A stretch of DNA of 64,000 bases from Candidatus Woesearchaeota archaeon (GTDB taxonomy: Archaea > Nanobdellota > Nanobdellia > Woesearchaeales > ARS49): positions 32,541 to 96,540 of the forward strand of contig JASMHM010000001.1 in NCBI GenBank assembly GCA_030750765.1, written 5' to 3'. Made by a program: the position numbers and the translations under genes. Shown in pieces: positions 45,101 to 57,255 of the stretch. Each line of letters begins with the position of its first letter. Positions within the stretch are counted from its first letter, which is position 1. Under the pieces are notes generated by a model. That model was not told the DNA's origin and ran no database searches. It saw only the letters and a list, made by a program, of their open reading frames with translations.

Positions 45101-48100
45101 ACGCCACCGACGATATAGGCGTGAGCGCAGTCCTAGCCGAAATACAATTCCCCAACAACGGAAGCAGCTTCAACCTCACACTCGTCAATCACACCGCAGT
45201 AGACTACAACATCACCTACACCCCCGGATTAGTAGATATGTATGGAGAATACAACGTAACCATCATAGCAAACGACACCAACGAAAACATCAACAACAGC
45301 ATTAGAACGAACTTCACCGTTACAGACCTCACCGAACCAACAGTCACCAACCTCAACATTAGTAACTCCACGGGCGATGCTGGAACCGCATTCAACATTA
45401 GCGTTAACATAACAGACAACATCAACGACACGAGCAGAGTAGACAAAGTGTTTGCCAACGTCACATTCAGAAACGGCAGCAACCAACTCTTCACCATGAG
45501 CTTGCACAGTGGCGTCAGGTACAATGTGACCTTCACACCTGAAGCATCTGCACCCGGAGGCGTGTACAACGTCACCATCCTAGCTAACGACACCAGTGAC
45601 AACCTCAACGACACCATCAAGCTCAACTTTACGGTTGCAGCCACGCCACACGTTGCAGAGACACAGCCACCAAACGTCAGCCAAACCAACACAACCGCAC
45701 TACCCGCCAGCTCTCAAAACGGCACCACCTTCACCATCACCACTAACGTAACAGACAACAACATCACCAACATAGTCCTAGCCAACATCACCTACCCCAA
45801 CAGCTCCAGCTTCCTAATCACACTCATCAACCACACAAGCGTAGACTACAACCAAACATACAAACACCCACCCGAAGACGCAACAGGAACCTACAACATC
45901 ACCATCATAGCCAACGACACCACCGACAACACCAACAACAGCATCAGCACCAACTTCACCATAACACAAGCACACACCGTAGACACCCAACCACCAAACG
46001 TCAGCCAAACCAACACCACGGCGACTGACAACTCACAAGTCCAAGGAAGCACCTTCACGATAACAACGAATGTGACAGACAACAACATCACCAACATAGT
46101 CCTAGCCAACATCACCTACCCCAATGAGAGCAGCTTCGTGATAACGCTCGTGAACCACACCGCAGTAGACTACAACAACACATACACGCACCCATATTAT
46201 GACGGACACGGCACGTACAACGTCACCATCATAGCCAACGACACCACCGACAACACCAACAACAGCATCAGCACCAACTTCACCGTCACTAAGAGAGTGC
46301 CTGCCATAAACTACACCACACCAACACTAGGCAATGCCACCCAAGTCAACATTAACTACGCCGAGGTCAACATCAGCATAGATGAGCCACAACTCCAACA
46401 AGTCAACTTCAACTGGAACAATACAAACTTCAGCATGTACAATGACTCTCTAGTCCTAATGATGAACTTTGACAACGTTAGCTCAATCGGAGACAACATC
46501 ACAAACTCAATTGACCTCAGCAGATACGGCAATAACGGAACACTTGAAGGAAACGCACAATACAACTGCACCTCACCCAGGTACGGATGTTCTACTAAAT
46601 TCGACGGGGACAATGACGCAATAGATGTCGGCAATGACAAGAGTCTAGACCTAGGGACTTCGTTTACCCTATCCGCCTGGGTGTACGTGTTCAGCCACGA
46701 TCCTGATTACTCATTCCTTATCACAAAGGATGCAGGCAGCGCGGCCAGTGGAAGCTACGACCTCGGATTCAAGAATAGCAAACCATACATTGCCATCTCG
46801 GACGGCGGCTGGGCAGAGTACGTCGCCGACGCCCCACTACCGCTCAACACATGGCAGCACATTGTTGGAGTAAGAGATAGCGGAAATAACTTGCATATTT
46901 ATGTTGACAGTGTTCTGAACAAGACTTTCGCAGGCGTGAAAACTCCTCAGACCATTACCACCCCGGTCGTTATTGGAGTGAGAGACGATAATGCTTACGA
47001 TTATGACGGATTGATAGACGAAGTTCGCATCTGGAACAGATCACTCAGCGAAGACGAAGTCACGTTCATGTACGAGTCCAACCTACGCAAAGTAAACGGC
47101 TCCCACTGGGAAGTATGGGTTAACCGAACCGGTCTTCCTGACACGGCCTACAACTTTTCTGCAGGCGTTACAGACACGTCAGGAAATATAAACACCACAG
47201 AAGAAAGATTGATAAACATTTCAGTAGGCGCGCTCCACATCGCAGACGCCCAGCCACCAAACGTCAGCCAAGACAACACAACCGTAACACCCGTCAGCGG
47301 AGATAATGGTACCACCTTCCGAATCGACACTAACGTGACAGACAACAACCAAACAGCCCTGATAGTGGATAGAGTCCTGGCAAACATCACCTACCCCAAT
47401 ACCAGCAGTTTCCTACTGGAACTATTCAACGGAACCGGCACGGATTACAACAACACATACGAACATCCAATCGAGGACGCAACGGGCGTGTACAACGTCA
47501 CCATCATAGCCAACGACACCACAAACAACGTAAACAGAAGCATCAGCACCAACTTCACCATTAATCTTGCGCACGTAGGCGACACACAACCTCCAAATGT
47601 GACTAACGTAAACGCCACACCTGAAAATGGCACTCAAGGACAAATATTTACCATTTACGCGAACGTTACTGACAACAATGTCACCAACATAGTGATTGCT
47701 AACATCACCTTCCCCAACCGAAGCAGCTTCACAATAACCCTAGCAAACCGCACTATCGTAGACTACAACAACACCTACGAACACGCGTACTACGACGCCG
47801 CGGGTTTGTACAACATCACCATCATAGCCAACGACACCACCGACAACACCAACAACAGCATCAGTGCTAACTTCACCGTGCTCAAACGCCCACCAAGCGC
47901 GATCTACACCTCGCCAACACGGGATAATAACACACAAATAAGTAGAAACTTCACAGAAATTAACATCAGCCTAGAAGAACCCAAACTTGCGAATGTAACC
48001 TTCACCTGGAATAGTACCCCATACGTACTGTACAACGAGTCCTTACAGCTATTGTTGAATTTCGACAACCGCTCCCAAATAGGAGAAAACCAAACAAGAA

Positions 48101-51100
48101 TGGTTGACATCAGCAACAAAGGCAACAACGGTTCATGTGCCACCACCACCTGCCCCACCCTAAACGGAAGCGCAGGAAAGTACGGAGGAGCCTACGAATT
48201 TGACGGAGACAATGACTTCATAGACGTCGGCACAGATGCTAGCCTCTTCTCAGACGTCTTCACTGCGGCAGTATGGATCTACCCACATGCCTACGAAAAT
48301 GGCCACGACAGAATTATACAACAAGGAACAGCAGGTGATGGTGATGGAGGAGGATGGGGAATCGAATGGGATGCTGCAGCAGATTCAGGACAAGACAGAG
48401 CATACGGAGTCATATGGAACGGAGGGTCATCCACAAGAGCAGCGCCCGCCGGAACCATGGCATTGGACACCTGGCACCACGTCACCCTAGCATATGACGG
48501 AGGCAGCAATAGTGCAACACTCTATGTGAACGGTGAACAAGACGGCACCGCAACATCTGCAATGACCAGACCATCAACCATCAACTTTGCAGTAGGAAAG
48601 CGACCAGGCGGCGCTAACAATTTCAACGGACGAATAGAACAGGTCCAGCTATGGAACAAGACATTCAACGCAGAAGAGGTACGAGCACTCTACGAATCTA
48701 ACCTGCAAAGAATGAACGAAACGCACTGGGAACTATGGATAAACCGAACAGAACTCAGCAACTCCACATACAACTACAGCGTAGAAGTACAGGACGCCTC
48801 TGGAAACGCAAACGACTCAGGCCGAAGACTCATCACCCTAGCAGGAACAATAGCAGATACCCAAGCACCAAACGTGACAAGCGTGAACGTCACCCCTGAA
48901 AATGGCAGCCAAGGAACCACCTTCAGAATCCAAGCGAACGTAACCGACAACAACGGAACCGACATAGTGCTGGCCAACATCACCTACCCCAACGCAAGCT
49001 CCTTCACCATCCCACTAGTGAACGAAACAGGAGTTGAGTACAACAACACCGTAACCTTCACCATCAACGACGTAGAAGGACTATACAACATCACCATCAT
49101 AGCCAACGACACCTTAGACAACGTCAACAACACAGTAACGACAAACTTCACCGTAACAGACCTCACCACCCCAACGGTTATCGCAGAAAACGTAACCCCT
49201 GGAGTAGATGGAACTAACTCACCCTACAACATAAGCGTGAATGTCACCGACAACATAGCATCTGCAGAACGCGTGGACACCGTGCTTGCCAATGTTACTT
49301 ACGTCAACGGAAGCACAAACCTACTTACTATGACCAACGGAACAAACACCACGTTTAACGTTTCCTTGACCCTAGACACCACCGCACCTGTTGGCGTGTA
49401 CAACATAACCTTCATAGCAAACGACACCAGTAACAATATCAACAACACAATACGTACAAACTTCACCATCAACAGCACGTCAGGATTGGCAGATGCGCCA
49501 GATGACACAGACACATCAGGATACATCATCGAAGGCGATGTTAACGCGACCATCAACATTACCAAAGACTATCCAGTAGATCAGTTCGTGAACTTTACAG
49601 ATGACACCCTCGGACTAAGACTACGGCTGAAGGCACTGTTCTCCCAAGGTCCAGTGAACTTCAGCAAGCTCATCATTGAAGCAGACGGCACCAACACCGC
49701 CATAAACACAACAGGAATCACAGGCGTTGATCCCGTACACTTCGTCGTCCTACCCAACACACTCGCCGAAGGATTGTTCGTCTGTCCACAAGCACAAACA
49801 TTAGAAGAAGTGACCACCGATTGTGCAAACATCACCATCTTCACCTACCAAGAAGCAGTACAAGGAACCATCAAGAACGGTTACAACGTAAGCTTGCTTG
49901 GAAACTTCCTCATCGGAAACATGACCGGAAGCGGAGCAGGAGAAGGAGATCTTACCCTACCAAACGTGACCGCAAACGTCACCCCTATCAGCGGAGCCCA
50001 AGCAAATGCGTTCACCATCCTCGCCAACGTCACAGACGACAACAACGTAAGCACCGTGCTAGCAAACATCACCTACCCCAACGGAAGTAGCTTCACCCTG
50101 ACCTTGGTTAACCACACTAACGTAGAATTCAACAACACATATACTCCTGCCTTGACAGACGCCACAGGAAGGTACAACGTCACCATACTTGCCAATGACT
50201 CAAGCGACAACGTCAACAACACAGTAACGACAAACTTCACCGTGACAGATGCTTCACTACCTGGACTTACCAACCTCAGCCCAAGCGGAGTGGCCTTCAA
50301 CCAACGACAAGACATCAACATCACAGCCAACGTGACGGACAACACCAACGTTAGCGTAGTCAGAGCCAACATCACTCAGCCAGCAGGCGATTCAGTAATC
50401 GTAACACTCATACAAAGCAGCACAGACATCTTCAACGCAACCTACGCAGACGCCGACCAACTAGGCAACTACACATTGCAATACCTAGCAAACGACACCT
50501 CTGACAACGTGAACGACAGCAGCATCATCTACTTCCGGGTTAATGACAGCCACGCGCCAAACGTCACCAGCGTTGCCAGCGCCCCCACGACAGGAGACCA
50601 AGGCGCCACCTTCAACATCAGTGCAGTCGTGATAGACAACGCAAACATTAGCCAAGTCTTTATGAACATCACCGGACCCGGTACAGGCGTCTACCTCCAG
50701 ATGAGAAATGTTTCGTCCACCTACAATGAGCTTTTCAACACCACCACAAGCACCGCTGCAGGAATCTGGACCGCGACAATCTACGCAAACGACACCTCAG
50801 GACTCATCAACCGCACAGCCAGCGCCACCTTCACGGTCACCGAACCAAGCACCACCACCCCAACAACAGGAGGAGCGGGCGGAAGTAGTGGAGGCGGCGG
50901 AGGCAGAAGTATCGTTCCACAGCCAGAGCCAGTAGCACCAACGTTCCCAGCAGCAGTGCTCCCAGAGCTACCCATACCATCACTCCCAGAGCCAACCGGC
51001 GGAGCAGTCTCCCCACCCGAGCTGCCAAACGTCACCGTACCCGCAGGTCCAGGAAAACCAACCGAAGAGCCAACAATGACCCCCGTACCTGAACAAGACA

Positions 51101-53091
51101 AGATACCAGCAGCCTTCCTCCTCGTACTGCTGCTCATCATCTGCGCTCTCCTTGCAGGAATCTACTACAAGAAACGCACCCGCCAGCCAATTACGAAGCA
51201 GAAAGTCACCCAGGACGCCAGAGGCATCAGACTACAAAGAATGCTCTCCTACCTAGCCAAGAAAGCCGCTAGCGAGACTGCAAGCGCAGCCCACGCACTC
51301 ACCCTACGACTCCGCAGAACCCGCCCTGTAAGCGGAATCATCAGCATTGCCAAGCTAATTTCCTTCTGGCGCAAGCCAACACCAGGCCAAGTCAAGGCAA
51401 GACTTGCCACCCTCGAACACGAAGCCAAGAGCATCCACAAAGAGAACCTCGGAAGCCTCTCAGATAAGATCAAACATCTCGAAGAGAGCGCACTCTCCAC
51501 TATCAAGAGTACTGCTGGAACACTCAAGGAAAGAGCACCCACACTCAAGAAGCACGTCACCCAACTAGAAAGGGAAGAAGAGAAGAGCATCAAACACGAA
51601 GCAAAAGACCTCAGACAAGATCTAGCCCAAGCAGAACGCGAGGAAGAGCACGTCAAGACCAAGATCAGTCAAGCATCCAAGACAGAAGACCTGCGAGAAA
51701 AGGCCAAACACCTCATCAGTCTCGAGTTCAGCCTCAGACCACTCAAGGCCCGCGTAGAAAGGATCAAAGAACGAATCCATGACATCCACATCCACAAAGA
51801 TAGCGTGCTAGCCCAGCGCTTCGAGATCATGGAGATGAGCATCCAACACCTCGAGCACCGCTTCAAAGATCGTGCAGAAGCAGCAGTGGAAGCAGGCGCC
51901 ACCGAGGGAATCGAACTCTCAGAAGCGGGCGTGGACGCCATCAAGCACACACTCTACTGGGCGTTACAACACGCCACCGCAGCAGGCAGAGTAGGCATCC
52001 AGACAGCCGGCAAGGGAATAGGAAAGGTAGAAAGAGCAGGCAAGGCAGGCGTCACGCTCAGCGCCACTGCAGCAAGCGCAGCAGCAAAAACAACAGCGAT
52101 GGCCTTGCACAAGGGCCTCACCAGCATCGAACACGCAGCAGTAGGAGGCGCAGCACTCAGCGCGGCAGCTGCAAAAACAACAGCAAGAGTTCTTGGAAAG
52201 GGCACCTCCACCTTGGAACACGCAGCAATCGGCGGAGTAGCACTAAGCGCAGGAGCAGCCGCCACATTAGTCAACGCACTCGCCCACTACGCACGCGCAC
52301 TAGAACAGCGAAGTGTGAACCGCGCCACCCAAGAAATCAAGAGCTTGACCAACGAAATCAGAGAGGCAGAACAAGAGCTCATCAGCAACATCAAGCAAGC
52401 AGTCAAAGAAATAGCCACAGAGCTCACCACATTCGAAAGGCGTACGATAAAGACAGCAAAGGATGAAGTCAAAGAGGTCAAGGAAGGCGCAAGAGATCTT
52501 GAGCACCAAGAAGTCAGCACCATCAAGCAGGAATCCCACGAGCTAGCCAGAGAACTGTCCAGCATCGAACGTGGCTCCATCGCACAGGTACAAGCTAAAC
52601 TGCACCACATCAAGGACGACCTCCACCAGAAGGAAAGAAGCGCAGTAACCCTAGCTGGCCACGTCATCCATGACATCATGCACAAAATCACGCTAGCGGA
52701 AGCTAGCCATGTCAACGCCATCGAGACCAGAATTGACAGGGTCCGCACCAAGATCTCGCTAATGCGTGCTCGCCACGACGAGTTCGACACACGCATCAAA
52801 TCACTAGACTTCAGCATCGCCCGATTCAAGGAAGAAGAGAAGGAACTCGGCCAGTACATCACCAAAGTCAGACGTAGAGTCAACAAGCTCCCAGACATCA
52901 CATCACACTCACTTTTGGATGAGGAGATTGCACAGATCAAGGCTACCCTAGCCACGATCAAAGCGCACCCAGCGCGAACCAATGTGCACAATCTCTCAAT
53001 CACGCAGGTGGACAAACGCCTGCGAGAAATCATCCAAGAGCTCACTCTCCCAAGAGGTAACACCTCTCGCAAAACACCGCCGCACCAATGA
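33151..53091 (+). CDS. Giant (6,646 aa) sequon-dense surface protein: pilin-like signal, 5 LamG-like modules, about 34 Ig-like repeats, Pro-rich stalk, one TM helix, 640-aa coiled-coil cytoplasmic tail
   Basis: A single uninterrupted ORF with a TTG start and GAGGGG 8 nt upstream. N-terminus (M)KKG/VTVVAILLIGLLASTFL. LamG-type signatures: VDEFRVWNRSLS, LDQVRIWNRSLS, IDEVRIWNRTLS, IDEVRIWNRSLS, IEQVQLWNKTFN. The repeat consensus is PNVT..V.QPNGTAHNG.INITVNVTDN.LPTN.HVD.VLA.ITPPNGSAS.Y.L.M.NGS.GG.TYN.TF....DGNYT.TFLANDT. TM helix IPAAFLLVLLLIICALLAGIYY, followed by KKRTRQ. Confidence 0.9.
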   Translation: MKKGVTVVAILLIGLLASTFLIGGEGITGFIPAVWLDESFYTTTVGESVLVNISDALQDGENASIKVDVPLEINYLLDGENLILTPTHSGNFAVRLAKANSTVTLTLVVEEGLPDLSLLPDLTETAELELIDEPVNQTLNESVNETILNTTVNESPPIVLDFPNLSLIPDLTENVTEGPEVVLNISNTTIAPSPVPTNVTGSSDDEIFNYNFLLIPKSMQVRDNRITGDVGSLRFRERQNYTNIHACLIAESQIIGLDSELCPQMNTSAEITLLDVPGPTIHYSHNGKDFLLCSGLSDPACTDIRYDGQNVTFNVSHFTIFTVLKEPPALGASASSCTGTPDTPTCNGFGDEESCNAQCGCTYNAGYYMCNADVDCSACDNDETGCDFWEQMVMCEWDPGSPAPGSTANAIPTASKPVLNSSNIGNNNTNQNLTFYTTITDDDTGDIHTNISVWYMNGSPTVLYYLPFEGWNQSKENFSFEYAYENHANVTNTNWQNITDSKVGRSYSINSTDNGNSHIAMNNTHTSLANFTVELWVKPELFKATMFTSACGDINSGCQIVSISNNFVLGIGWGIPFCQTSGGSYNIFANGSSNIIDGGWTHLACVNRQDRLELYVNGTLVDSTPHRIGDTETIDTSGSAVMIGADRTGGANLYNGTVDEFRVWNRSLSADMISLIYTKTKDGDNLHTMHASETRPGENWSVNLTVNDWRMDSASNMSNNVQIQGDNNVTNTIEAFEIFVLNSSEVTLNGTDENLSIIVNSTKNDSGDHSTNITVWYLNGSPILLHYLPFEAYNERQSFKTREYVRGSEANVTNATFLNGSGRVGSAYAFNTSDRPDLPNNIYTSYIALNNTAPEFSNFTIDMWVSKPQPDSAGIGETTCDATRSDPDTDPVKYCTMLSIGSNIEMRVSEGFAQCSWFTQNTLNSSTSISGKDWTHVACVYNQLGMAIYVNGTEEGSMNRSCGGTVTICEGIGDEEGCDAQDGCTWNEAICEGAATQCDQMSLSACPNQQGCAQNIFESWTAETNKSPIIIGADTSKTKGFNGSLDQVRIWNRSLSVDQISQIWTEEKEGNSFYTLRANETQTLDIWTANVTPNDGVQDGPSVMLNSITINQTGGEGGGPPPHVDEKLPPNVSYLNVSMPDGGAQLNVLNITVNITSEHSTNINVSVVLFQITPPNGTASTYNVTVDNGTATHTYNLTFNVPNFWQDGQYNVSVFANDTADLINNSIYTEFNINSVPNVSFLTVGQPDGTAQGNFVNVTVNVTDNNLPSNLQVDQVLINITPPNGSAYTIKVDNGSFGGDAYNLSFLTTIQDEHGTWTAHAIANDTNNNRNTTITQTFSITDTTAPNVTTLSVSQPNGTGHSGLVNITVNISDNIAAAERVDKVFATITPPNGSASAYNLTMSNGSNGGMTFNTTFIIPPVDADGNYTITVYANDTSDNVNDTISLQFLVATVPNVTTPSVVQPNGTVFNGLVNITVNVSDQALETNNHVDVVLAQITPPNGTASSYNLTMTNGSNGGITYNVTFVVPSVEADGNYTITFLANDTGGNLNDSISFQYQLAIVPNVSFHSIVQPNGTAHKGLINLTVNVSDNNLPTNRHVDQVLANITPPNGSASAYTLGMSNGSNGGTTYNLTFILTGIEEDGNYTVTFLANDTGNFLNNSEQIQFRIDTVPNVTEANVTQPSGTTGGNMVNVTINVTDNQLPTNHHIGEVLANITPPNGAVNAYTRIMTNGSSGGITYNYTFDTESFATVGTWEVQFIANDTGANVNSSNKTSFQVTAAADSTPVNVSTLNVTQPAGPVQNNIINITVNVTSSSSSNDDVAEVIANITYPNGSSYETYIDNGTNGGVQYNYTFLTTTQDEHGAWTVNIIGNDTAGNANTTLSTTFNVTDTQVPNVTTLSVVQPNGTGHNILVNLTVNVSDNIASAERVDKVFAQITPPNGSASSYNLTMSNGSDGGDTFNVTFFVDDIQASGNYTVTVYTNDTSGNVNDTISAQFRVELVPNVTEPAITQPNGTAHNGFINITVNVTDNQLPTNRHVNEVLAQITPPNGSASSYNLSMANDSLGGNTYNLTFVIPDIDASGNYTVLFIADDTGDSVNNTISLQFQVATIPNVTEKLVTQPNGTAHGGFINITVNVTDNQLPTNRHVDQVLASITPPNGSASQYNLSMSNGSNGGITYNLTFVIPPTDADGNYTVTFVVNDTGGFYNNSITTSFRLDIAPNVTTPAVTQPDTVVRGSTINITVNISDQGLETNNHIDVVLAQITPPNGTASSYNLTMTNGSSGGITYNLTFDLPPEDEDGNYTVTFLANDTGGNLNNTISIQFKRSIVPNVSFHSIVQPNGSLTNGLINITVNVTDNALPTNNHIDVVLANITPPNGSASAYTLSMTNGSDGGITYNLTLILPDLSEDGNYTITFLANDTDNNLNNSEGLQFKKAVVPNASFANVVQPNGTAHNGIINITVNITDNNLPTNRHVDQVLANITPPNGSASAYTLRMSNGSEGGNTYNLSFSISDISEDGNYTVTFLANDTGGNLNNSITTSFRVDTVPNVTQLSVLQPDGTGQGTMVNITVNITDNQLETNRHVDTVLVNITPPNGSASAYTLSTTNGSSGGITYNLTFDVDTVAEPGTYDITILANDTGGNLNNTITSTFEVTVVDTTPPNVSFLAIVQPNGTAHNGLVNVTVNVTSEWSSNENITNVFAQVVPPNGSASSYNLTMTNGSNGGITYNVSFIIPLVDESGNYTITIYANDTGDVVNDTISSNFNVELTPNVTTPTIIQPNGTAHNGFINITVNVTDNQLPTNNFVDVVLAQITPPNGSASSYNLTMNNDSLRGNTYNVTFFVDDVAASGNYTVLFLANDTSGNLNNTISLQFQVATIPNVTEKLVTQPNGTAHGGFINITVNVTDNQLPTNRHVDQVLANITPPNGSESAYTLSMNNDSLGGNTYNLTFIIPATDADGNYTVTFLANDSGNFLNNTITTSFRVDIAPNVTTPAVTQPDTVVRGSTINITVNISDQGLETNNHIDVVLAQITPPNGTASSYNYTMTNGSNGGITYNLTFDLPPEDADGNYTITFLANDTGGNLNNTISLQFKRSIVPNVSFHSITQPNGSIAGGLVNITVNVTDNSLPTNQHIDVVLANITAPNGSASAYTLTTANDSNGGTTYNVTLIIPSIYEDGNYTVTFLANDTDNNLNNTEGLQFQIATVPNVSFHAVDQPSGTSHNGLINLTVNVTDNSLPTNRYVDVVLANITPPNGSDYAYTLTMTNGSNGGTTYNISFIFPGIKEDGNYTITFLANDTGGNLNNSEQIQFRLATVPNVSFINITQPTGSERGRVVNITVNVTDNSLPTNHHIAVVLANITPPNGSDSSYTLTMTNGSDGGDVYNVSFIIPSFYGEGTYNITILANDTADNRNNSVTANWTITKRPPSINYTSPTLASDTSTNSNFTEVNITLNEPSLANLTFNWNGTDFTMYNDSLSLIMNFGNRSSIGESETTIADVSHYGNNGTCSGTTCPIVNSSGRYGTALNFDGSNDYVAFDNELAADYPFTVSLWFRRKASKDQALIQIHDGSSLSTEAFRMYITSTDVLRAAVRDGGSTLGIAEATKTTQQDVWHHATGVFASQTDRRVFLDGENKGTNTASAGPPVGINMTFIGQLRNTVWNYNGLIDEVRIWNRTLSDKEVKMLYESDLQKINSTDWKLWVNRTNLPVATYNHSAEAQDTSGNTNSTIIRTMTVTLAAIDAIPPNVSFLSIVQPNTTSHNGLINITVNVTSESETNVNISQVLAQITPPNGTGYNLSMANDSLGGLTYNATFIIDDVAASGNYTVVIIANDTAKNINLTVQSSFRVDLVPNVTQLSVLQPDGTKQGNLVNVTVNVTDNQLETNRHVDVVLLNITPPNGSVNAYTVVMTNGSNGGITYNVSFITLNKETLGTYRVQVLANDTGGNLNTTTNTTYEIITADAAAPNISQDNTTVNPLSAAQGTEFTIYTNATDDIGVSAVLAEIQFPNNGSSFNLTLVNHTAVDYNITYTPGLVDMYGEYNVTIIANDTNENINNSIRTNFTVTDLTEPTVTNLNISNSTGDAGTAFNISVNITDNINDTSRVDKVFANVTFRNGSNQLFTMSLHSGVRYNVTFTPEASAPGGVYNVTILANDTSDNLNDTIKLNFTVAATPHVAETQPPNVSQTNTTALPASSQNGTTFTITTNVTDNNITNIVLANITYPNSSSFLITLINHTSVDYNQTYKHPPEDATGTYNITIIANDTTDNTNNSISTNFTITQAHTVDTQPPNVSQTNTTATDNSQVQGSTFTITTNVTDNNITNIVLANITYPNESSFVITLVNHTAVDYNNTYTHPYYDGHGTYNVTIIANDTTDNTNNSISTNFTVTKRVPAINYTTPTLGNATQVNINYAEVNISIDEPQLQQVNFNWNNTNFSMYNDSLVLMMNFDNVSSIGDNITNSIDLSRYGNNGTLEGNAQYNCTSPRYGCSTKFDGDNDAIDVGNDKSLDLGTSFTLSAWVYVFSHDPDYSFLITKDAGSAASGSYDLGFKNSKPYIAISDGGWAEYVADAPLPLNTWQHIVGVRDSGNNLHIYVDSVLNKTFAGVKTPQTITTPVVIGVRDDNAYDYDGLIDEVRIWNRSLSEDEVTFMYESNLRKVNGSHWEVWVNRTGLPDTAYNFSAGVTDTSGNINTTEERLINISVGALHIADAQPPNVSQDNTTVTPVSGDNGTTFRIDTNVTDNNQTALIVDRVLANITYPNTSSFLLELFNGTGTDYNNTYEHPIEDATGVYNVTIIANDTTNNVNRSISTNFTINLAHVGDTQPPNVTNVNATPENGTQGQIFTIYANVTDNNVTNIVIANITFPNRSSFTITLANRTIVDYNNTYEHAYYDAAGLYNITIIANDTTDNTNNSISANFTVLKRPPSAIYTSPTRDNNTQISRNFTEINISLEEPKLANVTFTWNSTPYVLYNESLQLLLNFDNRSQIGENQTRMVDISNKGNNGSCATTTCPTLNGSAGKYGGAYEFDGDNDFIDVGTDASLFSDVFTAAVWIYPHAYENGHDRIIQQGTAGDGDGGGWGIEWDAAADSGQDRAYGVIWNGGSSTRAAPAGTMALDTWHHVTLAYDGGSNSATLYVNGEQDGTATSAMTRPSTINFAVGKRPGGANNFNGRIEQVQLWNKTFNAEEVRALYESNLQRMNETHWELWINRTELSNSTYNYSVEVQDASGNANDSGRRLITLAGTIADTQAPNVTSVNVTPENGSQGTTFRIQANVTDNNGTDIVLANITYPNASSFTIPLVNETGVEYNNTVTFTINDVEGLYNITIIANDTLDNVNNTVTTNFTVTDLTTPTVIAENVTPGVDGTNSPYNISVNVTDNIASAERVDTVLANVTYVNGSTNLLTMTNGTNTTFNVSLTLDTTAPVGVYNITFIANDTSNNINNTIRTNFTINSTSGLADAPDDTDTSGYIIEGDVNATINITKDYPVDQFVNFTDDTLGLRLRLKALFSQGPVNFSKLIIEADGTNTAINTTGITGVDPVHFVVLPNTLAEGLFVCPQAQTLEEVTTDCANITIFTYQEAVQGTIKNGYNVSLLGNFLIGNMTGSGAGEGDLTLPNVTANVTPISGAQANAFTILANVTDDNNVSTVLANITYPNGSSFTLTLVNHTNVEFNNTYTPALTDATGRYNVTILANDSSDNVNNTVTTNFTVTDASLPGLTNLSPSGVAFNQRQDINITANVTDNTNVSVVRANITQPAGDSVIVTLIQSSTDIFNATYADADQLGNYTLQYLANDTSDNVNDSSIIYFRVNDSHAPNVTSVASAPTTGDQGATFNISAVVIDNANISQVFMNITGPGTGVYLQMRNVSSTYNELFNTTTSTAAGIWTATIYANDTSGLINRTASATFTVTEPSTTTPTTGGAGGSSGGGGGRSIVPQPEPVAPTFPAAVLPELPIPSLPEPTGGAVSPPELPNVTVPAGPGKPTEEPTMTPVPEQDKIPAAFLLVLLLIICALLAGIYYKKRTRQPITKQKVTQDARGIRLQRMLSYLAKKAASETASAAHALTLRLRRTRPVSGIISIAKLISFWRKPTPGQVKARLATLEHEAKSIHKENLGSLSDKIKHLEESALSTIKSTAGTLKERAPTLKKHVTQLEREEEKSIKHEAKDLRQDLAQAEREEEHVKTKISQASKTEDLREKAKHLISLEFSLRPLKARVERIKERIHDIHIHKDSVLAQRFEIMEMSIQHLEHRFKDRAEAAVEAGATEGIELSEAGVDAIKHTLYWALQHATAAGRVGIQTAGKGIGKVERAGKAGVTLSATAASAAAKTTAMALHKGLTSIEHAAVGGAALSAAAAKTTARVLGKGTSTLEHAAIGGVALSAGAAATLVNALAHYARALEQRSVNRATQEIKSLTNEIREAEQELISNIKQAVKEIATELTTFERRTIKTAKDEVKEVKEGARDLEHQEVSTIKQESHELARELSSIERGSIAQVQAKLHHIKDDLHQKERSAVTLAGHVIHDIMHKITLAEASHVNAIETRIDRVRTKISLMRARHDEFDTRIKSLDFSIARFKEEEKELGQYITKVRRRVNKLPDITSHSLLDEEIAQIKATLATIKAHPARTNVHNLSITQVDKRLREIIQELTLPRGNTSRKTPPHQ
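39460..40176 (+). repeat. Near-identical segmental duplication, copy A (717 nt)
   Basis: It matches 41758..42474 at a constant offset of 2298 nt. It includes an exact run of more than 45 nt (caattccaagtggctaccatccctaacgtgactgaaaaactcgtcac). Confidence 0.8.
41758..42474 (+). repeat. Near-identical segmental duplication, copy B
   Basis: See copy A. Both ends align (caattccaag at 39460/41758; ggaagc at 40171/42469). Confidence 0.8.
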
Positions 53092-53167
53092 AGGTATTGG
53101 GAGTACCGGAGGCCGGCACTTTTCTTATCACAGCACCATGACGAATCTACGGAAAACGTTCACAAGG

Positions 53168-53175
53168 CTTTAAAG
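53168..53175 (+). promoter_or_regulatory. TATA box
   Basis: caaggctttaaag, about 26 nt upstream of ATG 53197. Confidence 0.5.
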
Positions 53176-53196
53176 TCGTCAAGACTAATCCAGAGT

Positions 53197-56025
53197 ATGG
53201 GCAGAGTCCAAGATACACTCACAGAACTCCAAGCGGTAGGTGATTGGTTGCGAGTGAGCCTGCGACATCTAGGTACACACTACATTCCGTGGAGCCACCG
53301 ATTCTTCACCAAACCTGTCCATGATGGACCTATCCACTATCTGGAAGAAAGCATCCAAAATCTTGGTTGTGAGCCCCGCCTCCAGAGTCATGTCTTCAAT
53401 CTCATCCAGTTTGACGGAGGAGCAGGAGATATAAGCCAAAAAATAGGCCAGAAAAGAAAGGCGATGCTCAGAGCCTATCTTCGAAAACAATCAGGCAGAG
53501 GGAAGCAAGCAGCAGATGAAGAGGAACCGTTGCGAGCCTTGAAGAAAATGGAGCGGGAAAGACACAGCGATAAACTAGAAAAACTCATCAAGGCAGCCGA
53601 AAACCACGGCAATTTCAGCATTTACTCCAACCTAGCATACATAGTGCAAGGAAACCTCACCGCCCACGCACGAAGAAGAGTGGCACAACCTGGAGCCTTA
53701 GTCCAGATTCCGGAAGAGACCGCAGACATCATGGTACGTACCAAACAAGCAGAAGGGGTTCTCAAGGAACTCATTGAACAAGCTGCCAAAGAAGAACCCA
53801 GAAGAAAATGGAAGGCAGTGGAAGAAAGACTTCCTGACCACAGAGCAGGCGGACTTATTGAGACGCTAAGAGCAGTGGTGGAGAGTGAGGGCGGCTCATT
53901 AGACGTGCATCTCCAAAAGTGCCAGATACGTGCGCGAATCAATACTCCTCCACCTACCTACAAAAGACAGCCCACTATCGATGAATGGTATACCGCAAGC
54001 GCAGGATTTCTCGATATAGAAATCCCCCGATTTAGAAGGTTTCCAGAAGAAGTTACGTGGGCAGGCATGCTCATGCACACACCAGAAGAAGATAAGCGTG
54101 AGATCTGCACAATCCACAATTTTGAGCTAGGCGCAAGAACGTACGAAAGAGTGATTCGTGGTAACGTAGAAGGCATAGTAAAGAGGACAGCAGAGTTTCT
54201 GAGACCTGCAGACCGCATACTCGCGTACAACGCCCCCTTCGACTTCATGAAAATGCGAGAGGCAGGAGAATTCTACACCGGTTTGAGAGATTCCCACCCC
54301 ATAAAAGAGACAGCAAAAGATTTCTTCACGCGAGTAGGAAATTATGGGAAGGAAGTCATCGATCTCTATCGATGGGCAACCATAGCCTTGGCCTACCTCC
54401 CAAACAAGAAATTAGACACTGTCATGCACTACCTCTTTGGGGAGAAGGTGAAGGACGTCACGTATGATGAGATGGAAAAAATAGAAGAAATGCTCCTCAG
54501 TCAGCAATACGGACACCAGCACGAAGGACAACGCGTGTACAAGTATCTAGAATCAGATGTGGACTCCATGTTACGCATCTATCATCACCCACGCTTCAAA
54601 CAATGCGTGGAGGATTGCTTATGGATGGCAGAAACCTTTGGTAGCAATTTTTCAAGATTGTTCAACCACCAAAACAGCATCAACGAAGCCCAAGAATGGG
54701 AATACTTCTCTAAGGTAGGCACCGTACGCCAAGCAGTGTACCCAAGAAACAAGATACTAGAAAAAAAGGAAGCAAAAGCAAGAGGAGTCTTCCAGCGACT
54801 GAAACGCAACGCACTCAACGCAGACATCACACCAGGCGTGCATGACGTATGGCAGTGCTACCTCCCTACTGCTCCGTACTTCAGAGATATCATCCAGGTA
54901 GAGGACCGCTTTACCAAGATGGCCCAACTCAGTGAGAGAATCGATAACACTAACGACCCCTACCAAAAATTCTTCCTATCAAAATACGAAGACGCCATCT
55001 GCCGATGGGTGATCCATGACTATGTAGACTTCTTGGTAGCTCAAGAAACGTTTGTGGAACTAGAAAAAGAAAAGGGCGTCCCGTTGTGGCGGCTCCAACG
55101 ACTGGCAGGAGAAGTCACCACAACCATCAAAAATGGCGAGGATACCTCCCTCAAACAACGCCTCAGAGGTGGCACACTCTCCCAAAGGCAGGTCAAGGAA
55201 ATCCTCTTTGACTACGATCTTACCCATGCCGAAGCCAGCGTAGCTCTTGAAGAGCAAACGAAGGAGGAAGGCCAAGAAGGCATCAATCTAGGAGACTACA
55301 CCCACATTGTGAATGCGTATGCGAGATGGGACCACAAGAGCAACAAACTAGGCGGACAGTTCCTTTCAGACGGACAATCTATGGAGGCAAAACTAGGAGA
55401 TCGCTTCTATGCATTAGAAGAATGGGCCTCAACAGCAAATATCGTGTATGCGCAGGGAGATTATGTCTACATTCGGGAGGACGAAATCAACGATGCTCCG
55501 GTGATCCCCGTGATGAAACACAAAGTAATCGTCACGCCTGACAAGAAAATATATTACGAGGCAGGAGGGGCCCTCAAGGGTTTGGATGAGGGGGATGCAC
55601 CCAAAGCGAACAGCAACAACTACGAGATGCACTACTGGACCAACACGGTAAGAGCAATACTGGATGATGACGCAGAAGCTGCATCCAAGATAGCAAATGA
55701 GGCCCTGTTCGGTCTGCAGAACAAAGCAGCAGAAATCCAAGATCTCCTCTACCACAACAAGTCCATGGACGCCCACGGGGTCTATGATGCAAGATACGAC
55801 AAAAAGCTCCAATTCTGGCTCCCAAACCAATGTACCACGAGAAAAGGGCATTTCTACCACGAAAAACAAAAAAGCAAGGTTGATGATCTAGGATACCACT
55901 ACTTTGAGATAGGTGAGAACACCATCCACGCCATGACCTTTGACGACGTCCACATAGACTGGGGAAAATACTACGAACGTAGCAAAAGGAGATTAAATAA
56001 TATGTTAGAGGCAGCCCAAGAGTAA
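53197..56025 (+). CDS. Family-B DNA-polymerase-like protein: clear PolB-type DEDDy 3-5 exonuclease domain, highly diverged or degenerate polymerase part, and a 270-aa N-terminal extension
   Basis: The Exo motifs are in canonical order and spacing: ExoI FLDIEIP (D273/E275), ExoII ILAYNAPFDF (N345, D349), the PolB-typical EVIDLYRW..LPNKKLDTVMHYLFGEKVKDVTYDEM, and ExoIII YKYLESDVDSM (Y450, D454). Candidate motif A is HDVWQCYLPT and candidate KxY is DKKIYYE. There is no YxDTDS; the best candidate is YAQGDYVY. Confidence 0.6.
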   Translation: MGRVQDTLTELQAVGDWLRVSLRHLGTHYIPWSHRFFTKPVHDGPIHYLEESIQNLGCEPRLQSHVFNLIQFDGGAGDISQKIGQKRKAMLRAYLRKQSGRGKQAADEEEPLRALKKMERERHSDKLEKLIKAAENHGNFSIYSNLAYIVQGNLTAHARRRVAQPGALVQIPEETADIMVRTKQAEGVLKELIEQAAKEEPRRKWKAVEERLPDHRAGGLIETLRAVVESEGGSLDVHLQKCQIRARINTPPPTYKRQPTIDEWYTASAGFLDIEIPRFRRFPEEVTWAGMLMHTPEEDKREICTIHNFELGARTYERVIRGNVEGIVKRTAEFLRPADRILAYNAPFDFMKMREAGEFYTGLRDSHPIKETAKDFFTRVGNYGKEVIDLYRWATIALAYLPNKKLDTVMHYLFGEKVKDVTYDEMEKIEEMLLSQQYGHQHEGQRVYKYLESDVDSMLRIYHHPRFKQCVEDCLWMAETFGSNFSRLFNHQNSINEAQEWEYFSKVGTVRQAVYPRNKILEKKEAKARGVFQRLKRNALNADITPGVHDVWQCYLPTAPYFRDIIQVEDRFTKMAQLSERIDNTNDPYQKFFLSKYEDAICRWVIHDYVDFLVAQETFVELEKEKGVPLWRLQRLAGEVTTTIKNGEDTSLKQRLRGGTLSQRQVKEILFDYDLTHAEASVALEEQTKEEGQEGINLGDYTHIVNAYARWDHKSNKLGGQFLSDGQSMEAKLGDRFYALEEWASTANIVYAQGDYVYIREDEINDAPVIPVMKHKVIVTPDKKIYYEAGGALKGLDEGDAPKANSNNYEMHYWTNTVRAILDDDAEAASKIANEALFGLQNKAAEIQDLLYHNKSMDAHGVYDARYDKKLQFWLPNQCTTRKGHFYHEKQKSKVDDLGYHYFEIGENTIHAMTFDDVHIDWGKYYERSKRRLNNMLEAAQE

Positions 56026-56026
56026 C

Positions 56027-56037
56027 CTTTTTAAAAG
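56027..56037 (+). promoter_or_regulatory. TATA box
   Basis: taacctttttaaaagg, about 28 nt upstream of GTG 56060. Confidence 0.5.
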
Positions 56038-56059
56038 GATAGGGGCTTTCTCGACTAAC

Positions 56060-56710
56060 GTGAAACAGCAAGTCATAAAAAAGAAATGGTTCAACATTAA
56101 CGCACCAAAAGTGCTTGGTGGAAAGACCTTCGGAGAGACCTATCTGGCAGACCCAGAAAAAGCAATAAACAGAAAGGTCACCACAAGCTTAATGAATGTT
56201 ACTGGAGAGCCATCCAAACAAAGCGTAAGCGTTTCCTTCCGAATCACCAGCAAAAAGGGAGATGCACTAGAAACATCCCTTACCAAGTACGGAATCAACC
56301 CTTCTGCAGTCCGCAAGATGATGCGAAAAAAGCGCAGCAAAGTGGACGATTCTTTTGTTGTTAAAACTAAAGATGGACTTATCATACGCATCAAACCTGT
56401 ACTCATCACCAAAGGCAAGACAAAAGGAAGCGTGCTTGCAATACTCAAGCACAAATCTCGCGAATTCATCGCCACAACGCTTAAGAATCGAAATTTTGAC
56501 GATTTGATCAAAGGTTTGGTAGAGAAAAAGTTCCAAAAAGAGCTAGCAATGGCACTCAAAAAGATCCAACCCGTGGTAATCTCAGAGATCAGACAAGTCA
56601 TCATCTTAGAAGGCAAGCAAGCAGAGAAAGTCAAACTCATTAAGCCCTCTGCAGAACCGGTTAAGGAAGAAAAGCCAGCAGAAGAACCAGCCCCAAAAGC
56701 TGAAGCATAG
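56060..56710 (+). CDS. rps3ae: 30S ribosomal protein S3Ae (eS1)
   Basis: KKKWFNINAPKVLGGKTFGETYLADPEKAINRKVTTSLMNVTGEPSKQ is the typical S3Ae N-terminus. 216 aa with a Lys/Glu/Pro-rich tail. Confidence 0.9.
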   Translation: MKQQVIKKKWFNINAPKVLGGKTFGETYLADPEKAINRKVTTSLMNVTGEPSKQSVSVSFRITSKKGDALETSLTKYGINPSAVRKMMRKKRSKVDDSFVVKTKDGLIIRIKPVLITKGKTKGSVLAILKHKSREFIATTLKNRNFDDLIKGLVEKKFQKELAMALKKIQPVVISEIRQVIILEGKQAEKVKLIKPSAEPVKEEKPAEEPAPKAEA

Positions 56711-57255
56711 TGGACCCTCACGAAGAAATTCTCAAAGAAGCGTTAGAAGCAGAGGATGCACCACCACCGTTCTGGAAAAAACCCTTGATACTCCTGTTTG
56801 GAGGAATCTTAGTGTTGCTCATGATGTCTTTCATCTTCGTCACCTACCCTATCGGAGACATCATCCAAGGACAGATGGTCTCCTCACCCTTAGAGAACAA
56901 TCGCATTATAACCGAAGAATTACTCATAACGTTTGACGAAGCCATCGTGGAACGCCTTGACGAGTGGTATTTTGCAGAACAACGCTATGAATGGACGGCG
57001 TGCTTGCAAGGAACAAAATACGAATGGGAATATCATATAACAGAGGCTTACCAACCAAGGATGTGGTTGCAAACCTACAACCACGTACAATTCGAACCCT
57101 GCGGCAAAGACACACTATTAATGCTCCACACCCACCCGTACAAGAGCTGTCAAGCTTCAACCACGGATCTTTCAACCCTAGAAAACGCACGAAAAGAAAA
57201 CCCCGACATTCTTATGGTGGTCATGTGCGAACCAGCACGGTTTAGTGTGTACTAA
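56710..57255 (+). CDS. Membrane-anchored JAB/MPN (JAMM) metalloprotease-domain protein
   Basis: Exact JAMM motif HTHPYKSCQASTTD (HxHx7Sx2D) with an upstream Glu (EWTACLQG). N-terminal TM segment LILLFGGILVLLMMSFIFV. The GTG start overlaps the S3Ae stop (TAGTG). Confidence 0.75.
   Translation: MDPHEEILKEALEAEDAPPPFWKKPLILLFGGILVLLMMSFIFVTYPIGDIIQGQMVSSPLENNRIITEELLITFDEAIVERLDEWYFAEQRYEWTACLQGTKYEWEYHITEAYQPRMWLQTYNHVQFEPCGKDTLLMLHTHPYKSCQASTTDLSTLENARKENPDILMVVMCEPARFSVY

What the first reader, a model, noticed from the sequence alone, without database searches (positions are those of the whole stretch)
53197..56025. PolB-family protein with intact exonuclease motifs but unrecognisable polymerase catalytic motifs
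ExoI (DIE), ExoII (NAPFD) and ExoIII (YLESD) match family-B polymerases, as does the PolB-specific stretch between ExoII and ExoIII, with canonical spacing (about 72 and about 105 residues). Downstream I can propose only weak equivalents of motif A (DVWQCYLPT) and KxY (KKIYY). There is no YxDTDS, and the spacing between candidate motifs is wrong. A 270-aa basic/helical N-terminal extension is also present. It could be an inactivated PolB paralog retained as an exonuclease or structural subunit, a very divergent polymerase, or a mobile-element relic.
Basis: partly seen in the sequence, partly recalled or inferred. Interest (0 to 1): 0.65.

Follow-up and report, generated by a model that had tools for sequence, protein, structure and literature searches.

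The report
Polymerase-dead PolB that keeps its exonuclease
A marine DPANN (Woesearchaeota-type) archaeon encodes a full-length family-B DNA polymerase look-alike that keeps a perfect proofreading-exonuclease site but has no conserved polymerase catalytic residues, and it belongs to a widespread family not found in the literature searched here.

Summary
The 942-aa ORF at 53197-56025(+) is real, and the identical gene occurs in many marine metagenomes. The protein itself matches nothing in Pfam, NCBIfam or PDB sequences. An exhaustive HMMER scan found a family of about 125 clusters (50% identity), mostly 900-1100 aa. All named members come from Woesearchaeota/Nanoarchaeota MAGs.

The family profile hits archaeal PolB structures (E=3.5e-12). 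hhalign gives 97.8% probability to E. coli Pol II over the exonuclease region. An AlphaFold model (pLDDT 94) matches only PolBs, over their full length.

The DEDDy exonuclease residues D273, E275, D349, Y450 and D454 are 98-100% conserved. The motif-A strand end has no acidic residues. The motif-C hairpin reaches at most 42% acidic in any column. Motif B is absent, and only a KxY-like element and the thumb remain.

The polymerase-like half is still under purifying selection (dN/dS about 0.12). The gene sits in variable chromosomal housekeeping contexts and was not found in phage, plasmid or viral-contig collections.

Best reading: an exonuclease-active, polymerase-inactive PolB paralogue. I could not show co-occurrence with a canonical replicase, and no activity is tested.

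The parts
53169..53174 (+). TATA-like box TTTAAA, 28 nt upstream of the ATG. It is a probable archaeal promoter for a leaderless or short-leader mRNA.
   Evidence: Read directly from the sequence. This is an inference and was not tested.
53197..56025 (+). Complete CDS of 942 aa plus stop codon: a PolB-fold protein.
   Evidence: The AlphaFold model has pLDDT 94.2 and pTM 0.92. Foldseek matches PolBs only. The identical sequence occurs in many marine metagenomes.
53197..53982 (+). Residues 1-262: N-terminal region. Beta strands 3-75 and 234-257 flank a helical insertion at about residues 76-230.
   Evidence: DSSP of the model. Residues M1, G26, H34 and F36 are conserved in the family. The low-stringency hhalign run reaches Pol II residue 2 (low confidence).
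53983..54606 (+). Residues 263-470: PolB-type DEDDy 3'-5' exonuclease domain.
   Evidence: Family profile against PDB archaeal PolB, E=3.5e-12. hhalign to Pol II residues 143-389, probability 97.8%. PF03104 is hit by 10 of 45 members.
54013..54021 (+). ExoI motif, D273-I-E275.
   Evidence: D and E are invariant in 81 of 81 members.
54229..54243 (+). ExoII motif, N345-A-P-F-D349.
   Evidence: N is 95% and D 98% conserved.
54346..54417 (+). PolB-specific stretch G384-KEVID389 ... L401-PNKKLD407.
   Evidence: D389 is invariant; K405 and L406 are 93-95% conserved. The stretch aligns to GRIHFDL/LPTYTLE of archaeal PolB and GRLIID/SFSLE of Pol II.
54544..54558 (+). ExoIII motif, Y450-LES-D454.
   Evidence: Y and D are invariant.
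54835..54867 (+). Residues 547-557: degenerate motif-A strand GVHDVWQCYLP. The canonical catalytic-Asp position falls at L556/P557.
   Evidence: The model has a strand at 547-555. The G547 anchor to 'PGLY' has posterior 0.6-0.9. Columns 551-559 are 0-8% acidic.
55441..55473 (+). Residues 749-759: degenerate motif-C beta-hairpin IVYAQGDYVYI, where YGDTDS would be expected.
   Evidence: The model has a hairpin at 749-753 and 756-759. Acidic content is 42% at column 753 and 17-18% at column 755. The residue register is uncertain.
55546..55557 (+). Residues 784-787: KxY-like element K-I-Y-Y.
   Evidence: Family counts of 81: K 40, Y786 52, Y787 69. The position is consistent with the HMMER thumb anchor, where KOD residue 621 matches about query residue 812.
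55618..56022 (+). Residues 808-942: thumb-like helical and beta region ending in the 'D921-W-G-K-Y925-Y' element.
   Evidence: Second HMMER stretch against PolB residues 621-665. The low-stringency hhalign run pairs D921..Y925 with Pol II 'LDYEHY'. E810, K855, F873, D921 and Y925 are 76-89% conserved.

Best explanation
The gene encodes a full-length derivative of a family-B DNA polymerase. The N-terminal, exonuclease, palm, fingers and thumb architecture is kept. The DEDDy 3'-5' exonuclease site is intact. The polymerase active site has lost its canonical metal-binding aspartates (motifs A and C) and its dNTP-binding motif B.

Proposed mechanism, which is inferred: the thumb and palm, including a retained KxY-like element, hold a primer-template or duplex end as a PolB does in editing mode. 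The 3' end is fed into the exonuclease site and trimmed, and nothing is added. The protein would then act as a stand-alone 3'-end editing or proofreading nuclease in replication or repair.

It is a chromosomal gene under purifying selection and belongs to a family found in Woesearchaeota/Nanoarchaeota (DPANN) MAGs.

Shown here: the fold, the motif conservation pattern, the selection, the distribution and the genomic context. Inferred: exonuclease activity, lack of polymerase activity, the DNA substrate and the cellular role.
For: Homology and fold:
- Family profile against PDB archaeal PolB, E=3.5e-12, with a second weak stretch in the thumb.
- hhalign to Pol II and a T4-like alignment, probability 97.8%.
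- PF03104 is hit by 10 of 45 members and PF00136 by none.
- The AlphaFold model has pLDDT 94.2.
- Foldseek hits in PDB and BFVD are PolBs only, with alignments of about 1060 columns. The highest TM-scores (0.51-0.53) are to P. abyssi editing-mode complexes and a Tgo hypoxanthine-DNA complex.

Exonuclease site:
- D273, E275, D349, Y450 and D454 are 98-100% conserved in 81 members.

Polymerase site:
- No column in residues 471-942 reaches 90% acidic in the full-length alignment; after realigning the C-terminal half only E810 does, at 91%.
- Columns 551-559 (motif-A strand end) are at most 8% acidic.
- The hairpin at 746-764 is at most 42% acidic in any column.
- These results are the same after realigning the C-terminal half alone.
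- No KxxxNSxYG is found under either plausible mapping of motif B.

The polymerase-like half is still functional:
- dN/dS is 0.124, against 0.109 for the exonuclease domain.
- ORFs are intact and full length wherever the contig allows, in 23 loci; three are cut by a contig end.

Cellular origin:
- Neighbours are housekeeping genes.
- No hits in phage, plasmid or IMG/VR collections.

Possible recruitment: 19 of 81 members carry a C-terminal Qxx[LIMVF]x[LFWY] tail, against 3.7 expected by chance, which suggests PCNA binding in part of the family.
Against: - No biochemical data exist.
- Residue-level alignment of the polymerase half to canonical PolBs is not statistically significant on its own (E=0.22). 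The motif-C register changes between runs.
- I could not inspect model coordinates, so a remodelled active site is not excluded. D608, E810, D896 and D921 are 82-91% acidic and could contribute to one.
- The window protein has one Asp (D755) at the hairpin tip.
- Precedent for caution: archaeal PolB2/Dpo2 was called inactivated and later shown to be an active translesion polymerase (PMC7544198, PMC7390963).
- Co-occurrence with a canonical replicase in the same genome was not tested. I rely on PMC7544198, which reports B7 PolBs in Woesearchaeota and Pacearchaeota.
- The window protein lacks the PIP-like tail.
Confidence: 0.6

Rival explanations
1. It is an extremely divergent but catalytically active DNA polymerase, replicative or translesion, that uses a non-canonical active site.
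For: - The full PolB fold is kept, and the polymerase half is under purifying selection.
- A KxY-like element and basic residues in the fingers region persist.
- D755 sits at the hairpin tip in the window protein and its closest relative.
- Several acidic columns in the C-terminal half reach 82-91%.
- PolB2/Dpo2 was wrongly presumed inactive (PMC7544198, PMC7390963).
Against: - Every active PolB compared here keeps the motif-A Asp. From general knowledge, PolB2 and piPolB do as well.
- In this family the corresponding columns are hydrophobic or Pro in essentially all members.
- Motif B is absent.
- No member hits PF00136.
Confidence: 0.17
2. It is mainly a structural replisome or repair scaffold, like the inactive C-terminal PolB module of eukaryotic Pol epsilon, and exonuclease catalysis is secondary.
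For: - The polymerase-like half is conserved without catalytic residues.
- PIP-like tails occur in part of the family.
- One locus has GINS about 7 kb away.
Against: - The five DEDDy residues are invariant or nearly invariant across about 80 very divergent sequences (mean identity about 20-30%), which argues that catalysis itself is selected.
- There is no C-terminal Cys-rich module: the protein has only 8 scattered Cys.
- There is no conserved gene neighbourhood with replisome genes.
Confidence: 0.1
3. It is a DEDDy nuclease that has been re-targeted to RNA or to another non-replicative substrate.
For: - From general knowledge, DEDDy domains also act on RNA (RNase D, Rrp6).
- Neighbours are often translation or ribosome genes, such as S3Ae, S8e, L15e, eIF-6 and SRP54.
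Against: - The closest relatives by sequence and fold are DNA polymerases.
- The neighbourhoods are not conserved across the family.
- The DNA-gripping thumb and a KxY-like element are kept.
Confidence: 0.08
4. It is a relic of a virus, casposon or plasmid PolB.
For: PolBs are common in mobile elements, and the gene lies next to a giant, compositionally odd surface-protein gene.
Against: - No match in 50,697 phage records, 72,556 plasmids or IMG/VR contigs.
- No integrase or terminal repeats were noticed, and flanks in unrelated lineages are housekeeping genes.
- dN/dS is about 0.1.
- The family has about 125 clusters, and every named member comes from one archaeal lineage.
Confidence: 0.03

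Closest known systems
Archaeal family-B DNA polymerases of the Thermococcales type (Tgo, KOD, 9°N, Pfu, P. abyssi, D. Tok; e.g. PDB 1qqc, 1tgo, 4flt)
   Same: They are the best sequence-profile and fold matches. They share the DEDDy exonuclease with identical ExoI, ExoII and ExoIII logic and spacing, the GRxxxD and LPxxxLE elements, the overall N-terminal/exonuclease/palm/fingers/thumb architecture, a KxY-like strand and the thumb helices.
   Different: This protein has no DxxSLYPS, KxxxNSxYG or YxDTD motif. It has a helical insertion of about 150 aa in the N-terminal region and lacks the helix between motif C and KxY. It does not hit Pfam PF00136.
Archaeal PolB2 / Dpo2 (the 'inactivated' B2 group)
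   Same: It is a divergent archaeal PolB paralogue with substitutions in its active sites (PMC7544198, PMC4104785).
   Different: The pattern is the opposite. B2 has lost ExoI and ExoIII but keeps one motif-C Asp, and it has polymerase (translesion) activity. This family keeps a perfect exonuclease site and has lost the polymerase carboxylates (PMC7544198).
C-terminal inactivated PolB module of eukaryotic Pol epsilon, and poxvirus F12
   Same: The PolB fold is retained without polymerase catalysis, presumably as a scaffold (PMC2669801, PMC4304020).
   Different: In those proteins both the exonuclease and polymerase sites are inactive, and Pol epsilon C-terminal module carries Cys-rich Zn modules. 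Here the exonuclease site is strictly conserved and there is no Cys-rich C-terminal domain.
Stand-alone proofreading exonucleases: DnaQ/epsilon, and the PolB-exo-like families PF10108 and PF13482
   Same: They have a DEDD-type 3'-5' exonuclease that acts without its own polymerase activity.
   Different: From general knowledge, those are single-domain proteins of about 200-300 aa. This protein keeps about 470 aa of polymerase-like palm, fingers and thumb plus an enlarged N-terminal domain, and it hits neither Pfam family.
E. coli DNA polymerase II and the archaeal B7 group
   Same: hhalign gives 97.8% probability over the exonuclease domain. B7 is the PolB group reported for Woesearchaeota and Pacearchaeota (PMC7544198).
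   Different: Pol II and B7 are canonical enzymes with motifs A, B and C. This family is not nested among them: its PDB profile E-value is 3.9e-5 for Pol II against 3.5e-12 for archaeal PolB.

Membership tests
Family-B DNA polymerase (PolB) superfamily, by homology and fold | DEDDy 3'-5' exonuclease domain with ExoI (DxE), ExoII (NxxxFD) and ExoIII (YxxxD) | tested here: met
   D273/E275, N345/D349 and Y450/D454 are 95-100% conserved. PF03104 is hit by 10 of 45 members.
Family-B DNA polymerase (PolB) superfamily, by homology and fold | Significant profile similarity to known PolBs | tested here: met
   hmmsearch against PDB gives E=3.5e-12 to archaeal PolB. hhalign gives 97.8% to Pol II. The single sequence alone gives no hit.
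Family-B DNA polymerase (PolB) superfamily, by homology and fold | Full N-terminal/exonuclease/palm/fingers/thumb architecture | tested here: met
   The AlphaFold model has pLDDT 94.2. Foldseek gives probability 1.0 to PolBs only, with alignments of about 1060 columns and TMt up to 0.53.
Catalytically competent PolB (a functional DNA polymerase) | Motif A, DxxSLYPS, with its metal-binding Asp | tested here: not met
   With G547 anchored to 'PGLY', the Asp position falls at L556/P557. Columns 551-559 are 0-8% acidic across the family.
Catalytically competent PolB (a functional DNA polymerase) | Motif B, KxxxNSxYG | tested here: not met
   No such pattern appears after D608 or around residues 712-724. 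Only scattered basic residues remain.
Catalytically competent PolB (a functional DNA polymerase) | Motif C, YxDTDS, with at least the second Asp | tested here: not met
   The hairpin at 749-759 reads IVYAQGDYVYI. Column 753 is 42% acidic and column 755 is 17-18% acidic. For the window protein alone the result is inconclusive, because D755 lies at the hairpin tip and the register is uncertain.
Catalytically competent PolB (a functional DNA polymerase) | KxY motif | tested here: inconclusive
   K784-I-Y786-Y787 has family counts of K 40, Y 52 and Y 69 out of 81. Its position agrees with the thumb anchor, but the local alignment confidence is low.
Catalytically competent PolB (a functional DNA polymerase) | DNA synthesis activity | not testable with these tools
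   Requires a primer-extension assay.
Archaeal PolB2 / Dpo2 group | ExoI degenerate, ExoIII missing, one Asp in motif C, and a group-specific D(K/R) motif (PMC7544198) | tested here: not met
   ExoI and ExoIII are invariant here, and there is no conserved motif-C Asp.
Pol epsilon C-terminal-type inactivated PolB module | Both the exonuclease and polymerase sites inactivated, plus a C-terminal Cys-rich metal-binding domain | tested here: not met
   The exonuclease site is intact. The protein has only 8 scattered Cys, and the last 60 residues have none.
Mobile-element PolBs (protein-primed, piPolB, casposon or viral) | Located in a virus, plasmid or casposon, with canonical or near-canonical polymerase motifs | tested here: not met
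   No hits in phage, plasmid or IMG/VR collections. Flanks are housekeeping genes. Polymerase motifs are absent.
Stand-alone PolB-exo-like exonucleases (PF10108, PF13482) | Single-domain protein that matches those Pfam models | tested here: not met
   No Pfam hit to these models in the query or in 45 members. The protein is 942 aa and has a full polymerase-like half.

The most novel reading that the evidence does not exclude
An ancestral archaeal replicative PolB was converted, across Woesearchaeota/Nanoarchaeota, into a dedicated trans-acting editing exonuclease. It kept the whole polymerase scaffold to grip primer-template DNA, and in many members a PCNA-binding tail as well. DNA synthesis passed to other enzymes: the bacterial-derived B7 PolB and/or PolD. 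This would be the first natural 'exo-only' full-length PolB, the mirror image of Pol alpha, Pol zeta and PolB2, and a prokaryotic parallel to the retention of dead PolB modules in eukaryotic replisomes.
Probability: 0.35. Interest if true: 0.75.

Novelty: new variant of a known kind. Interest (0 to 1): 0.62.

Why it matters
Known inactivated PolBs have lost the exonuclease (Pol alpha, Pol zeta, PolB2) or both activities (Pol epsilon C-terminal module, poxvirus F12). A lineage-wide family that keeps a perfect exonuclease inside a conserved but catalytically empty polymerase body would be a new evolutionary outcome for the most common replicase family.

The members whose source names could be checked are annotated as 'hypothetical protein', and most give no Pfam hit. 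Replication-gene inventories of DPANN archaea probably miss them.

The family gives a concrete, testable case of how a replicase paralogue is repurposed after polymerase displacement. It also bears on how small-genome symbiotic archaea maintain fidelity. It could provide a naturally polymerase-dead PolB scaffold for studying the editing mode.

Tried and rejected
- The single sequence against Pfam, NCBIfam, PDB sequences, PADLOC and PHROGs gave nothing meaningful, even at E up to 10.
- The word-indexed homologue search found only the protein itself and one 66%-identical relative. AlphaFold with that two-sequence alignment failed (pLDDT 30). The exhaustive HMMER scan was needed to find the family.
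- Two further homologue searches, meant to collect canonical PolBs for a profile, were unproductive. A 138-aa fragment of 1qqc returned 4 short fragments. E. coli Pol II returned only relatives of at least 85% identity in the 120 listed. I built a small canonical PolB alignment from E. coli polB and six phage PolBs instead.
- hhalign of the C-terminal half alone against that alignment was not significant (E=0.22). Low-stringency global extensions disagree on the motif-C register. I therefore rely on register-independent column statistics.
- Searching about 400 kb of fetched loci for a canonical PolB found none. This says nothing about whole genomes.
- The neighbourhood analysis found no conserved partner gene.
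- A population-level pN/pS estimate was not possible, because the gene is near-clonal across runs, with one SNP.
- No RNA evidence was available. Only poly(A) metatranscriptomes were offered, with zero shared words.
- Supplements of PMC7544198 and PMC12680538 held no usable per-genome polymerase tables.
- The literature searches found no description of this family.
Full report
**1. The observation**

The window holds an uninterrupted ORF at 53197-56025 on the + strand, encoding 942 aa. DIE is at residues 273-275, NAPFD at 345-349 and YLESD at 450-454. DVWQCYLPT starts at residue 550 and KKIYY at 783. There is no DTD. A TTTAAA box lies 28 nt upstream of the ATG.

The same 3 kb is present, essentially letter for letter, in contigs from at least ten independent marine, seawater and hydrothermal-vent metagenome runs. 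Four runs laid on the region showed one SNP and no indels. The ORF is therefore not an assembly artefact.

The window is archaeal. It carries TFB, ribosomal protein S3Ae, a class-II AspRS-type synthetase, and a giant 6646-aa surface protein. TFB is my reading of the sequence and was not scanned; S3Ae is the Pfam call for the syntenic gene in L001. The closest genomic relative is a Candidatus Woesearchaeota MAG with the same synteny (72% identity in the exonuclease domain, L002). Woesearchaeota belong to the Nanobdellati (DPANN).

**2. Homology**

On its own the protein matches nothing:
- Pfam, NCBIfam and PDB sequences gave no hit, even at E up to 10.
- PADLOC and PHROGs gave nothing meaningful.
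- The word-indexed search found only the protein itself and one 66%-identical protein from a TARA Oceans scaffold.

An exhaustive HMMER scan of 1.84 billion cluster representatives found 125 clusters at E<=1e-3, of which 60 are at E<=1e-30. Most are 900-1100 aa. Of ten looked up, three carry a source name, and it is 'hypothetical protein' in each; one is RLE39614.1 from Ca. Woesearchaeota.

Seventeen species-representative genomes carry a member. They are labelled Woesearchaeota, Nanoarchaeota, Nanobdellota or Nanoarchaeia, plus several 'uncultured Methanosarcinales' bins. One of the latter is a 774-kb chromosome, so that label is probably wrong.

The evidence that this is a PolB:
- An 81-sequence family alignment (A2), used as a profile, hits archaeal PolB structures at E=3.5e-12, E. 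coli Pol II at 3.9e-5 and yeast Pol delta at 3e-4. A second weak stretch matches the thumb.
- hhalign against Pol II gives 97.1%, and 97.8% with a small canonical PolB alignment. It covers query residues 260-515, matching Pol II residues 143-389.
- Ten of 45 members reach PF03104 (the PolB exonuclease domain). None reaches PF00136, the polymerase domain.
- With the deep alignment, AlphaFold gives pLDDT 94.2 and pTM 0.92.
- Foldseek finds only family-B polymerases in PDB and BFVD, at probability 1.0 with full-length alignments. The highest TM-scores are to P. abyssi PolB editing-mode complexes and a Tgo hypoxanthine-DNA complex.

**3. The two halves behave differently**

In the exonuclease domain, D273, E275, D389, Y450 and D454 are invariant. 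N345, D349, K405, L406, K419 and Y423 are at least 93% conserved. The ExoII-ExoIII spacing is 105 residues, against 105-114 in the seven canonical PolBs compared (105-107 in five of them).

In the polymerase-like half (residues 471-942), no column reaches 90% acidic in the full-length alignment. The most acidic columns are E810 (89-91%), D608 (84-86%), D896 (85%) and D921 (80-82%). Realigning the C-terminal half alone does not change this beyond lifting E810 to 91%.

*Motif A.* The nearly invariant G547-[LIV]-[FYH]-[ND] corresponds to the 'PG(L/V)Y(D)' element that lies nine residues before the catalytic Asp in canonical PolBs (posterior 0.6-0.9). The model's strand 547-555 therefore ends at Y555/L556/P557, where the Asp should be. 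Columns 551-559 are 0-8% acidic.

*Motif C.* The only beta-hairpin in the right place is 749-753/756-759, IVYAQGDYVYI. In one register Q753 takes the place of the catalytic Asp; in the other, D755 does (one search shows the alignment is unstable here). Neither column is conserved: column 753 is 42% acidic and column 755 is 17-18% acidic.

*Motif B.* It is absent under both plausible mappings.

*What remains.* A KxY-like strand (K784, Y786, Y787) and the thumb (E810, K855, F873, D921-x3-Y925) are moderately conserved, and their positions agree with the HMMER thumb anchor.

The polymerase-like half alone has no significant profile similarity to canonical polymerase domains (E=0.22). Its identification rests on the predicted fold.

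**4. The polymerase-like half is not decaying**

Between the window gene and its 66%-identical relative, dN/dS is 0.10 for the N-terminal region, 0.11 for the exonuclease domain and 0.12 for the polymerase-like half. dS is near saturation. In the 23 loci held, the gene is an intact ORF of 756-1243 aa, full length wherever the contig allows (three are cut by a contig end).

**5. Genomic context**

The neighbours differ between lineages and are housekeeping genes:
- S3Ae and a JAMM-motif membrane protein, in this window and in the TARA scaffold;
- SRP54-family protein, eIF-6, prefoldin and L15e;
- S8e, LSM, L37e and, at about 7 kb, GINS.

From reading N-terminal sequences (not tested), a UvrB-like ORF is directly upstream in L005, and MutS-like and MutL-like ORFs are adjacent in L010. 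DnaG-like, RIO-kinase-like and Topo VI B-like ORFs are nearby in L004 and L014, and the first two also in L011.

No partner gene is conserved across the family. There are no matches in phage, plasmid or IMG/VR collections.

**6. Interpretation**

The conservation pattern is the signature of selection for exonuclease catalysis and for a folded DNA-binding polymerase body, but not for nucleotidyl transfer. I therefore propose an exonuclease-active, polymerase-inactive PolB paralogue that binds a primer-template as a PolB does in editing mode and trims 3' ends.

Nineteen of 81 members end in a Qxx[LIMVF]x[LFWY] tail, against 3.7 expected in random interior windows. This suggests PCNA recruitment in part of the family. 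The window protein lacks the tail.

PMC7544198 reports that Woesearchaeota and Pacearchaeota carry a bacterial-derived B7 PolB. A plausible but untested history is that the ancestral archaeal PolB became free to lose polymerase function after that acquisition.

**7. Caveats**

- I could not inspect model coordinates, so a remodelled active site is not excluded.
- PolB2/Dpo2 is a published case of a 'dead' PolB that turned out to be active (PMC7544198, PMC7390963).
- No expression data were available.

**8. Comparison with known kinds, and novelty**

The protein is a homologue of family-B polymerases. It fails the defining catalytic features of a functional polymerase (motifs A, B and C). It does not fit PolB2 (exonuclease lost, polymerase retained), the Pol epsilon C-terminal module or F12 (both activities lost), single-domain PolB-exo-like nucleases, or mobile-element PolBs.

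Literature searches found no description of such a family.

I rate it a new variant of a known kind, with interest about 0.6. It is a clear, lineage-wide family whose members, where a name could be checked, are annotated only as hypothetical proteins. Its function is still inferred.

Noticed in passing
window 33151-53091 (+): A 6646-aa ORF with a TTG start lies directly upstream. It has an N-terminal hydrophobic segment and dozens of repeats of about 95 aa, rich in N-x-S/T sequons ('...NITPPNGSASAYNLTM.NGS.GG.TYN.TF...'). It also has interspersed modules that end in '...DEVRIWNRSLS', a C-terminal membrane anchor and a long helical tail. The region has extreme AT skew (0.32-0.45) and negative GC skew. 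The same gene order is seen in L001 and L002. It is probably a giant DPANN surface or adhesion protein.
   Followed up: partly
window 56710-57255 (+): A 181-aa predicted membrane protein whose start abuts the S3Ae stop codon. It carries an exact JAMM metalloprotease signature, H-T-H-x7-S-x2-D ('HTHPYKSCQASTTD'), yet has no Pfam hit at E<=1e-3. It is conserved downstream of S3Ae in L001 and L002.
   Followed up: partly
family members P0005, P0007, P0012, P0015, P0017, P0031 and others (C-termini): Nineteen of 81 family members end in a Qxx[LIMVF]x[LFWY] motif, for example 'GGQLELSLE', 'NQLFLDF' and 'EQLELVFE'. Random interior windows give 3.7 on average. Others end in 'QxSLF' or 'QGELF'. The motif looks like a PCNA-interacting tail. 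The window protein and its close relatives lack it.
   Followed up: partly
L003, L004, L009, L011, L012, L016-L018 (record titles): Several genomes that carry the family are deposited as 'uncultured Methanosarcinales archaeon'. One is a complete 774-kb chromosome (OZ246410.1), which is DPANN-sized rather than Methanosarcinales-sized. The taxonomic labels of these third-party (TPA) bins are probably wrong.
   Followed up: no
L005 6173-8137; L010 (- strand ORFs of 837 and 572 aa); L004, L011, L014: In single lineages the family gene lies next to DNA-metabolism genes, judged only from their N-terminal sequences. A UvrB-like ORF is 59 nt upstream on the same strand in L005. MutS-like and MutL-like ORFs are in L010. 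DnaG-like, RIO-kinase-like and Topo VI B-like ORFs are in L004 and L014, and the first two also in L011. None of these is conserved family-wide, and none was verified with profiles.
   Followed up: partly
window 53100-56100: The population is near-clonal. Contigs from runs of different studies, including seawater and hydrothermal-vent samples, are identical over 3 kb except for one C>T change at 55931, which changes codon 912 from Ala to Val.
   Followed up: yes
model m438d05d62d35 against PDB: The highest TM-scores of the predicted structure (0.51-0.53 normalised to the target) are to P. abyssi PolB 'edition mode' complexes and to Tgo bound to hypoxanthine DNA. Replicative ternary complexes score 0.42-0.49. 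This may only reflect thumb orientation.
   Followed up: no
method note: The word-indexed homologue search found 2 proteins, where the exhaustive HMMER scan found 125 clusters. A 138-aa archaeal PolB fragment retrieved only 4 short fragments. Families this divergent are effectively invisible to the indexed search.
   Followed up: yes
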